14,166 nucleotides of DNA, taken from UHGV virus genome UHGV-1657835. One strand, written 5' to 3'. The position numbers were made by a program, and so were the translations under genes. The notes below the pieces were generated by a model. That model was not told the origin of the DNA. It searched no databases and worked only from the letters and a program-made list of their open reading frames with translations. Shown piece after piece: positions 382 through 6,282 of the stretch; position 1 is the stretch's first letter, and every line of letters begins with the position of its first letter. The DNA comes from a virus.

Positions 382-789
382 GTGCTTTGTTTGGCAGATA
401 ACTATGATGAAGCCTGTGAACTTGCCGAAAGACAGCAGGCAAGCTGGGTAAAAACACGGTCTGAACCGACATTCATGTTTTCAAAAGAACCGCCATTTAT
501 ACTGGCGAGGATGTCGCAGCGACCGGATCATCAACAAGAAATTGTTGCTGAATTTTCCTCAAGGGATGAGATGAATCTCTTCTCATTAAAGCAGGAAGAA
601 AGGGATCGCGTCGAAGTGTCTCCAACTCTCGACCACAACCGGATGAACCTGGCCCAGCTCGCCTGGTACAGCAAAGAATTAGAGATGTCTATTGCCCGGC
701 TTGAAAACGAAAAAGCCGCTATCCAAGTCCAGCACGAAGTAGTTCTGAACCGGATTAGAGAAATGCAAAACGATAACAGGGGATTTTGA
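382..789 (+). CDS. Hypothetical protein with coiled-coil C-terminus; the frame continues upstream to ATG 205 but is broken by an in-frame TAG at 295-297
   Basis: ORF-track ORF with GTG start at 382. The same frame is open back to ATG 205, which has a good RBS (AAGGA, 194-198), with a single TAG at 295-297 in between. TGA 787-789 abuts the ATG of the next gene. Confidence 0.55.
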   Translation: MLCLADNYDEACELAERQQASWVKTRSEPTFMFSKEPPFILARMSQRPDHQQEIVAEFSSRDEMNLFSLKQEERDRVEVSPTLDHNRMNLAQLAWYSKELEMSIARLENEKAAIQVQHEVVLNRIREMQNDNRGF

Positions 790-1146
790 ATGGCTAAAAT
801 CGAGTACCATCGCGATCGCAGTAATTACCTGGAAATATACGATCATGAATCTCTTAACGATATCAACGATGCGTTATATGAATACTGTGAAAAAACGAGC
901 ATCACAGATGCACCTGATGCATTTGTCGAGCTGCCGGTATATCTCCGCGACATCTATGCAATACGAACACCGCCCGTATCGGTGATTCACATTGGCTATG
1001 TCCGCCTGTCCATCGAAGAAGATGAAGATCGTTATATCGTGCGCCACTATACATTGGACAGAAAAGAACTTCCTAATGAATGGAACATGAGTAATTTCTA
1101 CAACGGTGAATATGGCTTAAAATCCGCTAATAATTTACGGTCATAA
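790..1146 (+). CDS. Hypothetical protein (118 aa), translationally coupled to the upstream gene
   Basis: ATG 790 directly follows the upstream TGA (TGAATG), with an AGGGGA RBS 7 nt upstream. Acidic protein with no recognisable motif. Confidence 0.6.
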   Translation: MAKIEYHRDRSNYLEIYDHESLNDINDALYEYCEKTSITDAPDAFVELPVYLRDIYAIRTPPVSVIHIGYVRLSIEEDEDRYIVRHYTLDRKELPNEWNMSNFYNGEYGLKSANNLRS

Positions 1147-1272
1147 TCTATACAGGCATGTATAACAACAACGAGCCTATTAGCTGTCAACAACGTTATT
1201 TCCTCAAATAAGAAAAAGCAGAAAACAAATTGTTTAAGGTCACAAATTGTGGCCTTGATGGAGGAGGGAGGC

Positions 1273-1503
1273 TTATTGGCTATGGCTAAAAATCAAATTA
1301 GACACTTCATGTTGCTGTAGCTCATCAAGATCCGAGGCCACAAAACCTTTTCCGAAAAACTTCACAAGTAACTCACTAGCCGCATCATTGTCACCTATTA
1401 CACGAAAGTCATACGGCAACGTCGCAAGTTGACGATGTAATCCTGCTGAGAAAGTCGAATCTAACAGCGCCCAGAATTCCCACCGCAGGATAATACTCGC
1501 CTC
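1273..1503 (-). pseudogene. Possible gene remnant: protein-like open frame with no start codon
   Basis: Minus-strand frame of about 76 codons (EASIILRWEFWALLDSTFSAGLHRQLATLPYDFRVIGDNDAASELLVKFFGKGFVASDLDELQQHEVSNLIFSHSQ*) bounded by stops, with no ATG or GTG start. The composition looks protein-like, unlike the overlapping ORF-track ORFs in this region. Confidence 0.2.
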
Positions 1504-2008
1504 TTAATACTGTATATATGTTGTTACGATATGTTTTTCTGTCTCTAAAAAAAGATGTTAATAGAATGCTAACCATTGAAGGGGATAAAAATATACAATT
1601 CCAACAAACGTTATTTTTAACAATTTTTTTCTTTGCGTTGACTTTCCCGGACACCTTGTCTGACCGAAGGTGCGCGAAAGCCACTTTTTCCTTCCTGAGT
1701 TATCCACAAAGTTATGCACTTGCAAGAGGGCCATTTTCTACATATTGTGGTGGCTAACAGATGAAATGAATGTAGATTAATTGAAGATAAGGAGAAAATT
1801 TGAGATGCAATCATGACGTTAATAGATAGGGTCTGCATTACAGACCCCACCCGCATCAAGGAATTAGCCGTTCCCTGATGTTTTTCCGAAAACATGTGCC
1901 GTAAGCTCACGTTAACGACTTTCATTCACCGAATCCAACTATATAGGGGTTGGGTTTCTACGTCAACGTGAGCAAGTGCACCTTTACATTTGACAAGGAA
2001 CCACCTGA

Positions 2009-2146
2009 ATGAACGCTTTTTTTCAGTTCCTGAGTGCATTTTTAGATGCGCCTATTATTAGCCAGATTCTGGCTATTATCCTCATCATCGTTTTGATTTT
2101 GCTTTTAAGGTCAGTAAAAAATGGAATTATGCACTGGCTTACTTAA
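2009..2146 (+). CDS. Small hydrophobic membrane peptide (45 aa, one predicted TM helix)
   Basis: ATG 2009 with AAGGAA RBS 8-9 nt upstream. Translation is MNAFFQFLSAFLDAPIISQILAIILIIVLILLLRSVKNGIMHWLT. It is below the ORF-track length cutoff, convergent with the leftward operon, and followed by an 8-bp-stem hairpin (2145-2163). Confidence 0.45.
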   Translation: MNAFFQFLSAFLDAPIISQILAIILIIVLILLLRSVKNGIMHWLT

Positions 2147-2221
2147 TGTTTCAGTGAAACATTAAAATCTCCTTGATGTGGAAACAATCATTTTCTGTAT
2201 GTGCTGGTGGGCACCTGTAGT

Positions 2222-2584
2222 TCAGCTTTCGTTGGCATTTAACTTCGTCTTTGCTTTCTCCACCAGCAACTTCCAGATGCCTATTTCATTAGCAGCCGCC
2301 TTGATGGCGGCATAAAAAGCATCTTGCTGATCGTAACGCTGGATCTGTTTTTTCAGTTTTGCCTCCACCAATTTAATTTCATTACGTGCTTTCTGAAGCC
2401 GCATCACCGCCCGGTTACGTCTGTTCTTGTATAGCGTGTTAATCTCTGACAATTGCTTTAATTTACCAGCCTGACTGCGGATTATCGCCTCCCTGGCTTC
2501 TGCCGTGCGTCTCATCTTATCTCTTAAGAGTTCACCGTTTTCGATAATTCTTTCAAGGTGTTTGATGTGATCTGCAACTCTCAT
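2222..2584 (-). CDS. Hypothetical basic coiled-coil protein (120 aa); last gene of the leftward operon
   Basis: ATG 2584 overlaps the upstream stop as ATGA (plus 2581-2584). Lys/Arg-rich helical sequence. Confidence 0.7.
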   Translation of the reverse strand: MRVADHIKHLERIIENGELLRDKMRRTAEAREAIIRSQAGKLKQLSEINTLYKNRRNRAVMRLQKARNEIKLVEAKLKKQIQRYDQQDAFYAAIKAAANEIGIWKLLVEKAKTKLNANES

Positions 2585-6133: not shown

Positions 6134-6220
6134 TTACCCATGAGCGACGATGCCGCCAAAAGTGATAGAGAACTGCCAGAAATAGATCGCGGCCATAATG
6201 ATTTTGAATGCCGTGTTCAT
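6134..6220 (-). CDS. Small hydrophobic peptide (28 aa), leader gene of the operon
   Basis: ATG 6220 with AGGAG RBS 9 nt upstream. Translation is MNTAFKIIMAAIYFWQFSITFGGIVAHG. Its TAA stop sits inside the RBS of the next gene. Not in the ORF track because it is too short. Confidence 0.4.
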   Translation of the reverse strand: MNTAFKIIMAAIYFWQFSITFGGIVAHG

Positions 6221-6247
6221 ATTTTCAGCTCCTGTGATTGATTGGAT

Positions 6248-6270
6248 ACATGCCGCGCCTTGCGGCATGT
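6248..6270 (+). terminator. GC-rich hairpin followed by a T-run on the plus strand; lies in the 5' leader of the leftward operon
   Basis: CATGCCGC-gcctt-GCGGCATG (8-9 bp stem) followed on the plus strand by TTTTTATTTT. On the minus strand it is preceded by an A-run and has no U-tract after it, so it would only terminate plus-strand (antisense) transcription, or act as a leader structure. Confidence 0.35.
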
Positions 6271-6282
6271 TTTTATTTTCAC

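What the first reader, a model, noticed from the sequence alone, without database searches (positions are those of the whole stretch)
2009..2146. Unannotated 45-aa hydrophobic peptide gene convergent with the leftward operon
The ORF has a good RBS, a single predicted transmembrane helix (ISQILAIILIIVLILLL) and a basic C-terminus. It is too short for the ORF track. Small single-TM peptides in phages act as type I toxins, lysis or holin-like modulators, superinfection-exclusion factors or cell-division inhibitors.
Basis: seen in the sequence. Interest (0 to 1): 0.45.

Follow-up and report, generated by a model that had tools for sequence, protein, structure and literature searches.

The report
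Small membrane-protein gene in phage P1/P7
The 45-codon reading frame is probably a real small membrane-protein gene of P1/P7-type phage-plasmids, next to a conserved structured antisense RNA gene, which resembles an RNA-controlled toxin module, but no experiment shows expression or toxicity.

Summary
The window is a P7/P1-type phage-plasmid. ORF 2009-2146 (+) exists exactly as described: ATG, AAGGA nine bases upstream, one hydrophobic helix (residues 15-33) and a basic tail. The P1 and P7 reference annotations omit it and place upfM on the opposite strand. PGAP and the SJ46 record call it a hypothetical protein.

Only three alleles exist anywhere I searched. The most distant is 76% identical in DNA and 58% in protein. 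It keeps the start, stop, length and Shine-Dalgarno sequence, has no indel while the flanks have three, and gives dN/dS 0.41 (p=0.025). The minus-strand upfM frame is not kept. I put the chance that it is a real gene at about 0.7.

Just upstream is the best-conserved element: an invariant minus-strand promoter (1966-1938) followed by a three-hairpin RNA that is far more stable on the minus strand. Further left is a copy of the E. coli nrdA promoter with two DnaA boxes, pointing toward the ORF. If it fires, the ORF mRNA has a leader of about 255 nt, overlapped by the antisense RNA. That is the layout of a type I toxin-antitoxin system.

There is no homology to any known toxin or RNA family. Expression, toxicity and regulation are untested. 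Interest is moderate.

The parts
1610..1738 (.). Stretch 95% identical to the E. coli chromosomal ypaB-nrdA promoter region
   Evidence: Every one of 5426 complete E. coli genomes matches it.
1700..1720 (+). Two DnaA boxes (TTATCCACA at 1700-1708, TTATGCACT at 1712-1720), invariant in all three allele lineages
   Evidence: The P1 record notes two predicted DnaA boxes here.
1720..1748 (+). nrdA-type sigma-70 promoter pointing rightward (-35 TTGCAA, 17 bp spacer, -10 TATTGT). The inferred start is near 1755, which would give the ORF a leader of about 255 nt.
   Evidence: It is positionally homologous to E. coli TTGCAA-17-TATCTT. That promoter lies about 107-110 nt before the nrdA ATG. It scores 8 of 12, below the scan threshold, so one search did not list it. 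Activity is inferred.
1938..1966 (-). Minus-strand promoter TTGACG-17-TATAGT (10 of 12 matches), invariant in all alleles. The P1 record calls it the predicted 'PupfN'.
1787..1931 (-). Candidate antisense RNA of about 115-145 nt. It has three hairpins: SL1 1886-1918, SL2 1854-1880 and SL3 1824-1852. The block 1790-1972 is the best conserved here (92-96% in most of it, 82% across 1851-1900) and falls off sharply on both sides.
   Evidence: The minimum free energy is -44.1 kcal/mol (z -4.8) on the minus strand and -29.6 on the plus strand. The fold recurs in the diverged allele. There is 1 compensatory and 2 half-compensatory pairs. Variable columns are 7 of 26 unpaired against 6 of 70 paired, p=0.027. 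The 3' end is not determined.
1789..1794 (+). Strong Shine-Dalgarno-like AAGGAG in the putative plus-strand leader, followed by tiny ORFs (TTG 1800, ATG 1805, ATG 1813). It marks the left edge of the conserved block.
   Evidence: No coding signal was shown for any of the tiny ORFs.
1995..1999 (+). Shine-Dalgarno AAGGA, 9 nt before the ATG. The diverged allele has GAGGA with an 8 nt spacer.
2009..2146 (+). The 45-aa ORF: N-terminal amphipathic segment, Pro15, hydrophobic helix 16-33 and basic tail
1926..2039 (-). Minus-strand ORF annotated as upfM (P1) or upf91.3 (P7). Its frame is not conserved, so it is probably not a gene.
   Evidence: Searches give the annotation. Searches show no equivalent ORF in L003, a 1-nt indel inside the frame, and stops in all minus frames.
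2222..2584 (-). pmgV homologue, the last conserved gene of the convergent leftward operon
   Evidence: phrog_4403, E=3e-77.

Best explanation
ORF 2009-2146 is a genuine gene for a small single-pass membrane protein, confined to P1/P7-type phage-plasmids of Escherichia, Salmonella and Shigella. Together with the element just upstream, it forms a module built like a type I toxin-antitoxin system.

Inferred mechanism:
1. A rightward promoter copied from the host nrdA promoter, with its two DnaA boxes, starts an mRNA near 1755.
2. The leader of about 255 nt runs through a conserved 186-bp unit. On the opposite strand, that unit holds its own strong promoter (1966-1938) and encodes a three-hairpin RNA.
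3. This antisense RNA would pair with the leader and keep the membrane peptide from being made, either by mRNA cleavage or by blocking translation.
4. When the RNA is lost, or promoter activity changes with DnaA or replication status, the peptide would insert into the inner membrane and damage it. That would serve plasmid-prophage addiction or a stress or abortive response.
5. During lytic growth, read-through from the convergent pmgT-V operon would also be antisense to the ORF.

Shown: the ORF and its signals, conservation of the frame, conservation and strand-specific structure of the antisense unit, and homology of the DnaA-box promoter to the nrdA promoter.

Inferred: both transcription starts, the RNA's 3' end, translation, toxicity and regulation.
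For: Gene reality:
- The diverged allele (L003 and others, 76% nt, 58% aa) keeps the ATG, the TAA, 45 codons and an AGGA core at 8-9 nt.
- There are no indels in 138 nt, against 3 indel events in 105 nt of flanks.
- Eight codons differ only synonymously. dN/dS is 0.41, Fisher p=0.025.
- The ORF stays intact in 11% of simulations that shuffle the same substitutions, and in 0.08% at flank-like rates.
- Only this frame is open, and upfM on the minus strand is broken.
- The ORF is 76% identical between alleles, against 61-65% for its immediate flanks.
- It is the only small ORF in the window that combines ATG, a Shine-Dalgarno motif and a membrane-grade helix.
- PGAP and the SJ46 authors call it a gene. 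29 of 30 plasmids with the third allele carry it full length.

Antisense unit:
- The promoter matches 10 of 12 positions and is invariant.
- The fold is -44.1 kcal/mol (z -4.8) on the minus strand against -29.6 on the plus strand, with 8 G.U pairs specific to the minus strand.
- The same fold appears in the diverged allele.
- Substitutions avoid or compensate stems, p=0.027.
- The conserved block 1787-1972 ends just outside the -35 element.

Plus-strand promoter:
- The DnaA boxes and the -35 element are invariant in all lineages and homologous to the E. coli nrdA promoter, pointing toward the ORF.
- I saw no other acceptable plus-strand promoter between 1750 and 2009 (and reading).

Context:
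- The module sits in the accessory, non-essential, variable region with phd-doc, humD, hot and, in the third lineage, a type I restriction system.
- ORF and antisense unit co-occur in every locus with enough flanking sequence.
Against: - There are effectively only two independent lineages, so every comparative statistic is weak (p about 0.03 each).
- Substitutions by codon position are 12, 8 and 13, which is not strongly periodic.
- Amino-acid conservation is no better than in shuffled substitutions.
- Two overlapping frames give similar or lower dN/dS values, although both contain stops.
- The DNA is T-rich.
- The plus-strand promoter matches only 8 of 12 positions and is unverified. Without it, the ORF mRNA and the antisense RNA would not overlap.
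- I found no trans complementarity between the RNA and the translation start region beyond chance.
- The hairpin that sequesters the Shine-Dalgarno sequence is not conserved.
- SL3 is followed by only a weak U tract, so the minus-strand RNA could instead be a leader of the hot mRNA.
- There is no homology to any type I toxin or antitoxin family.
- No conserved terminator follows the ORF.
- No expression data were found in the literature.
Confidence: 0.4

Rival explanations
1. The ORF is a real small membrane protein but not a toxin. It could be a lysogen-expressed modulator of a host membrane protein, an exclusion or immunity factor, or a helper of the neighbouring genes. In the third lineage it is co-directional with hsdMSR. 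The adjacent minus-strand RNA would then be an unrelated sRNA or the leader of the hot mRNA.
For: - The coding evidence is the same as for the best explanation.
- Many bacterial and phage proteins of 30-50 aa with one membrane helix are non-toxic regulators (established knowledge).
- In P1 and the third lineage, hot lies downstream of the minus-strand promoter.
- SL3 has a poor U tract.
- There is no trans pairing with the start region.
- The ORF is co-directional with hsdM in the third lineage.
Against: - The P7-type lineage, which includes this window, has no hot gene downstream yet keeps the RNA unit.
- The only acceptable promoter for the ORF lies beyond the antisense unit, which forces an overlap.
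- In P1 and P7 the ORF faces pmgV rather than hsd, so it is not tied to the restriction genes.
Confidence: 0.3
2. The ORF is not translated. It would be a chance open frame in T-rich spacer DNA between convergent transcription units. Its conservation would then reflect RNA-level or DNA-level roles, such as the 3' region of read-through transcripts, predicted promoters or recombination history. The functional elements here would be only the antisense RNA and the DnaA-box region.
For: - Codon-position skew is weak (12, 8, 13), and protein-level conservation is not better than shuffled.
- The sequence is T-rich.
- The ORF is less conserved (76%) than the RNA block (92-96% in most of it).
- There are no homologues outside the three alleles among 1.84 billion representative proteins.
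- PGAP leaves the P7-type allele unannotated.
- Frameshifted and IS1-hit variants exist.
Against: - The frame, start, stop, length and Shine-Dalgarno spacing are all kept at dS of about 0.57, while indels accumulate just outside.
- The probability of that outcome under flank-like rates is 0.0008.
- dN is lower than dS, p=0.025.
- The ORF is more conserved than both immediate flanks.
Confidence: 0.25

Closest known systems
hok/sok (plasmid R1) and ldr/rdl (E. coli) type I toxin-antitoxin loci
   Same: Each has a small hydrophobic single-helix peptide with a long 5' leader. A short structured antisense RNA with its own strong promoter is encoded inside that leader on the opposite strand. hok/sok stabilises a low-copy plasmid, and P1 is also a low-copy plasmid.
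   Different: There is no sequence or RNA-family homology (Pfam, NCBIfam and Rfam searches were negative). No overlapping mok-like frame reaches the ORF. The fold-back pairing of the 3' end seen in the window is not conserved in the diverged allele. Toxicity and regulation are untested.
tisB/istR-1 and dinQ/agrB (stress-promoter-driven type I toxins)
   Same: In both, the toxin mRNA is driven by a promoter wired to DNA status: LexA there, apparently DnaA here. The leaders are long. Neighbours here include the LexA-controlled humD and lxr genes.
   Different: Those antitoxin RNAs are divergent and pair in trans through short matches. Here no trans match exists, and pairing would come from full cis overlap. 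DnaA control is inferred only from promoter homology.
E. coli nrdAB promoter with its two DnaA boxes
   Same: Window 1610-1738 is 95% identical to the host sequence. The boxes, the -35 element and the spacer are in the same order and orientation.
   Different: Downstream of the -10 region the phage sequence is unrelated to the nrdA leader, and no NrdR-box region is shared. It precedes the antisense unit and the 45-aa ORF instead of nrdA.
P1 reference annotation upfM/upfN/upfO (P7 upf91.3, upf91.4)
   Same: These ORFs occupy the same DNA. The promoter that the P1 record names 'PupfN' is the minus-strand promoter described here.
   Different: They are minus-strand protein ORFs of unknown function, and their frames are not kept in the diverged lineage. 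The evidence favours a non-coding minus-strand RNA and a plus-strand peptide gene.

Membership tests
Type I toxin-antitoxin systems (generic definition) | Toxin is a small (under about 60 aa) hydrophobic peptide with one membrane helix | tested here: met
   The protein has 45 aa. The Kyte-Doolittle 19-residue window scores 3.10 at residues 15-33, and the C-terminal side is basic. The diverged allele keeps the same profile (2.59).
Type I toxin-antitoxin systems (generic definition) | An antisense RNA gene is complementary to the toxin mRNA | tested here: inconclusive
   A conserved minus-strand promoter and a strand-specific three-hairpin RNA lie at 1787-1966. Overlap with the ORF mRNA depends on an unverified start near 1755. 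No trans pairing with the start region was found.
Type I toxin-antitoxin systems (generic definition) | The peptide is toxic when expressed, and the RNA represses its synthesis | not testable with these tools
   This needs inducible expression, membrane-potential assays and RNA complementation.
Known type I toxin and antitoxin families (Hok/Gef, Ldr, TisB, Ibs, ShoB, Fst and others; Sok, Rdl, IstR, Sib, OhsC RNAs) | Sequence or covariance-model match to the family | tested here: not met
   Pfam and NCBIfam gave only chance-level hits. Rfam at E up to 1 found nothing in 1600-2300.
Holins and lysis modulators | A small membrane protein encoded in a lysis cassette next to an endolysin or spanin | tested here: not met
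   The neighbours are pmgV, upf genes, hot or hsd, and humD. No lysis genes are present. No PHROG lysis family matches.
PHROG 1184 (unknown function) | Significant profile match shared by all alleles | tested here: not met
   The P7 and P1 alleles score E=0.06. The diverged allele does not hit the family at all. The match is probably compositional.
Known anti-phage defence proteins (PADLOC) | Profile match | tested here: not met
   One search returned no hit, or E=0.11 on a membrane segment.

The most novel reading that the evidence does not exclude
Phage P1, a model phage studied for seventy years, may carry a second, overlooked addiction or stress module beside phd-doc. It would be a new family of type I membrane toxin. 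Its mRNA would be driven by a captured host nrdA/DnaA-box promoter, so toxin production would be coupled to the host's replication-initiation status. A structured cis-antisense RNA would hold it in check. The reference annotation would have hidden it by placing ORFs on the wrong strand.
Probability: 0.25. Interest if true: 0.65.

Novelty: new member of a known kind. Interest (0 to 1): 0.45.

Why it matters
P1 and its relatives are model phages, standard genetic tools and common carriers of resistance genes as phage-plasmids. If the module is what it looks like, three things follow:
- It would add a second maintenance or stress system to P1.
- It would correct the reference annotation of the hot-pmgV interval. 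The likely reading there is a plus-strand peptide gene and a minus-strand RNA, not upfM/N/O.
- It would be an example of a mobile element borrowing a host replication-linked promoter to control a membrane peptide.

If the module is not functional, the result is still useful. The ORF is a lineage-restricted hypothetical gene with modest coding evidence.

Tried and rejected
- **More distant homologues.** I searched for them to strengthen the frame test. The searches were tblastn and blastn on phages and plasmids, IMG/VR by protein and by DNA motif, metagenomes, GTDB representative genomes by protein and by DNA motif, 5.8 billion protein clusters, and phmmer on 1.84 billion representatives. Only the same three alleles and their damaged variants came back.
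- **Family searches.** Pfam, PHROGs, NCBIfam, PADLOC and Rfam gave nothing. I rejected the PHROG 1184 hit because the diverged allele does not share it.
- **A promoter directly upstream of the ORF.** None is acceptable. TTGACA at 1991-1996 and TTTACA at 1984-1989 have no usable -10 element in any allele.
- **An intrinsic terminator after the ORF, or between it and pmgV.** Only a weak hairpin exists (2147-2161), and it is not conserved.
- **A hairpin sequestering the Shine-Dalgarno sequence (AGGAAC/GUUCCU).** It is present in the window but not in the diverged allele.
- **Trans pairing of the antisense RNA with the start region.** It is no better than shuffled controls.
- **Leader mini-ORFs at 1800-1878.** Their frames are kept, but substitutions are mostly non-synonymous, so there is no coding signal.
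- **Literature.** I found no paper on this ORF, on a P1 type I system, or with strand-resolved P1 transcript maps. The P1 genome paper is not held.

Full report
**Identity of the window.**
Bases 1700-2400 are 100% identical to phage P7, Salmonella phage SJ46 and many E. coli phage-plasmids, and 97% identical to phage P1. In P1 coordinates the finding lies between hot and pmgV. Published comparisons call this accessory 'variable region 8', and deletion and CRISPRi surveys score most of its genes as non-essential for lytic growth; upfM was not tested by CRISPRi.

**The observation.**
The ORF is exactly as described: ATG 2009, TAA 2144-2146, 45 codons. AAGGA lies at 1995-1999, nine bases before the ATG. 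The best 19-residue hydropathy window scores 3.10 at residues 15-33. The N side carries net charge -1 and the C side +2.

ORFs of this size are common: the six frames hold 84 of 35-70 aa. Only two have both ATG and a Shine-Dalgarno motif, and only this one also has a membrane-grade segment. The DNA is T-rich (41% T), which by itself favours hydrophobic frames.

The pmgV homologue (2222-2584, minus strand) ends 75 nt downstream, so 'convergent' is right.

'Unannotated' is half right:
- The P1 and P7 reference records instead annotate upfM/upf91.3 on the minus strand (1926-2039), plus predicted promoters.
- The RefSeq plasmid pE2855-2, which matched 1700-2400 at 100% identity, has nothing annotated here.
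- PGAP calls the P1-type allele WP_000123562.1, and SJ46 calls it J46_0085.

**Is it a gene?**
Every collection I could search returns the same three alleles:
- the P7 type, which is this window;
- the P1 type, with two amino-acid differences;
- a third type, MIVFFQFLSAFLNAPVLSQVLAIVFIVVLIWFFKSVINRGVRWLI, which is 58% identical in protein and 76% in DNA.

In the third type, pmgT-V are replaced by a type I restriction system, hsdMSR. No relatives were found in GTDB representative genomes, among 5.8 billion protein clusters or among 1.84 billion representative proteins.

Against the third allele, the ORF shows the following:
- The ATG, TAA, length and an AGGA core at 8-9 nt are all kept.
- There are 33 substitutions and no indel in 138 nt.
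- The immediate flanks (1973-2008 and 2147-2215) are only 61% and 65% identical and carry three indel events.
- Eight codons differ only synonymously.
- dN/dS is 0.41, with Fisher p=0.025.
- Shuffling the same substitutions keeps the ORF intact in 11% of trials. At flank-like substitution and indel rates the figure is 0.08%.
- All other frames have stops. The 1-nt indel at about 1999 breaks upfM, and the third lineage has no equivalent minus-strand ORF.

The weaknesses are real:
- There are effectively two independent lineages.
- Codon-position counts are 12, 8 and 13.
- Protein-level conservation is no better than in shuffles.
- Two overlapping frames give similar or lower dN/dS values.

I put the probability of a real gene near 0.7.

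Damaged variants exist:
- a T7-to-T6 frameshift in one phage record;
- frameshifts in P0001, P0004 and H187;
- IS1 insertions in the last 6-9 codons, in two different allele types.

They are too few to interpret, and some may be homopolymer sequencing errors.

**What lies upstream.**
Between the window and the third allele, the best-conserved DNA is not the ORF. It is a block from about 1787 to 1972, with these identities:
- 92% for 1790-1850;
- 82% for 1851-1900;
- 96% for 1901-1972.

Conservation falls to 45% on the left and 61% on the right.

The right end of the block is a minus-strand promoter, TTGACG-17-TATAGT (1966-1938, 10 of 12 matches). It is the best promoter match in the interval, is invariant in all alleles, and is the promoter the P1 record lists as the predicted 'PupfN'.

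The RNA it would make, starting near 1931, folds into three hairpins:

| Hairpin | Coordinates |
|---|---|
| SL1 | 1886-1918 |
| SL2 | 1854-1880 |
| SL3 | 1824-1852 |

The fold energy is -44.1 kcal/mol (z -4.8). The complementary plus-strand sequence reaches only -29.6 kcal/mol, because eight pairs are G.U on the minus strand. The diverged allele folds the same way.

One stem pair changes on both sides (U-A to C-G), and two change from G.U to A-U. Three of the seven SL2 loop bases differ while nine of its ten stem pairs are invariant; only the outermost pair is broken in the diverged allele. Variable columns are 7 of 26 unpaired against 6 of 70 paired, p=0.027.

The minus-strand ORFs annotated here (upfN, upf91.4) are not kept in the third lineage. 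The simplest reading is a non-coding structured RNA.

Its 3' end is unknown. SL3 is followed by only a weak U tract. In P1 and the third lineage, hot lies further downstream, so the RNA could also be a leader of the hot mRNA. The P7 lineage, however, has no hot gene and still keeps the unit.

**How the ORF could be transcribed.**
I found no acceptable plus-strand promoter between 1750 and 2009 (and inspection). Further left, 1610-1738 is 95% identical to the E. coli chromosomal ypaB-nrdA promoter region, and every one of 5426 complete E. coli genomes matches it.

The two DnaA boxes (1700-1720) and the -35 TTGCAA (1720-1725) are invariant in all three lineages, although their surroundings diverge. 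With a 17 bp spacer, TATTGT follows at 1743-1748. This is positionally homologous to the E. coli TTGCAA-17-TATCTT promoter, which lies about 107-110 nt before the nrdA ATG.

The promoter points rightward. If it is active, the ORF mRNA starts near 1755 and has a leader of about 255 nt that runs antisense through the whole minus-strand RNA gene.

**Mechanism proposed.**
The parts are a small hydrophobic peptide, a long leader and a strong-promoter structured cis-antisense RNA inside that leader. The setting is a low-copy plasmid, in an accessory island with phd-doc, humD, hot or hsd. This is the architecture of type I toxin-antitoxin loci such as hok/sok and ldr/rdl.

I therefore propose an antisense-controlled membrane peptide, most likely toxic. 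It would possibly be coupled to DnaA status through the borrowed promoter, and it would be silenced during lytic growth by read-through from pmgT-V.

Only the anatomy and its conservation are shown. Both transcription starts, translation, toxicity and control by the RNA are all inferred.

Several points count against the proposal:
- The plus-strand promoter is weak on paper (8 of 12 matches).
- The RNA has no trans match to the start region.
- The hairpin masking the Shine-Dalgarno sequence is not conserved.
- There is no homology to any toxin or antitoxin family.

**Other context.**
The third allele with its upstream unit also sits in E. coli chromosomes beside metG and apbC, within a humD-hot-ORF-hsdMSR block. 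There the ORF is co-directional with hsdM.

**Verdict.**
The type I toxin option is the only one with specific structural backing, and it remains a hypothesis (about 0.4 for the whole mechanism). The rivals are a real but non-toxic small membrane protein (0.3) and a conserved but untranslated frame (0.25). This is a new, lineage-restricted member of a known kind of system. Interest is moderate.

Noticed in passing
window 1610-1738: This stretch is 95% identical to the E. coli chromosomal ypaB-nrdA promoter region, including two DnaA boxes and the -35 element. The P7-type lineage shares about 129 bp with the host. P1 and the hsd-type lineage share mainly the invariant core of about 47 bp, which suggests repeated exchange with the host chromosome.
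   Followed up: partly
window 1787-1966 (minus strand): A conserved promoter plus a three-hairpin RNA lies here, with no Rfam match. It is better conserved than any neighbouring ORF. The reference annotations cover it with the protein ORFs upfN and upf91.4, whose frames are not conserved.
   Followed up: yes
window 1926-2039 (minus strand): upfM (P1) or upf91.3 (P7, phrog_31823) overlaps the 5' end of the finding on the other strand. A 1-nt indel breaks it in the diverged lineage, so it is probably an annotation artefact.
   Followed up: yes
L003 2501-4733; L135-L142: In the third lineage an EcoR124-type hsdMSR restriction system replaces pmgT-V, directly downstream of the ORF and co-directional with it. 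The same humD-hot-ORF-hsdMSR block also occurs in E. coli chromosomes next to metG and apbC.
   Followed up: partly
L005 2620-3329; L133; P0003: IS1 has inserted independently into the last 6-9 codons of the ORF in two different allele types. Both events leave the membrane helix intact and add the same IS1-encoded tail (VMTPTY). This could reflect an AT-rich hot spot or selection; I could not tell which.
   Followed up: no
window 773-1600: This lineage lacks the hot gene (the Pol III theta homologue) that P1 and the hsd-type carry between lxr/upf93.6 and the DnaA boxes. About 450 bp with no annotated gene in the matching records sit in its place. P7 itself has IS903 inserted nearby.
   Followed up: no
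window 1789-1830 (plus strand): A strong Shine-Dalgarno-like sequence, TAAGGAG, is followed by tiny frames (TTG 1800, 9 codons; ATG 1805, 3 codons) at the left edge of the conserved block. It could be a leader peptide, or simply the complement of the antisense RNA's 3' region.
   Followed up: partly
window 2168-2175 versus 1787-1795: In the window, the 3' flank of the ORF (UCUCCUUG) can pair with the leader's AAGGAGA in the full-length fold. This resembles the fold-back pairing of hok mRNA. It is not conserved in the diverged allele.
   Followed up: partly
window 6193-6276: There is a weak Rfam match to GcvB (20 bits against a gathering score of 42, E=0.72). It is almost certainly chance.
   Followed up: no
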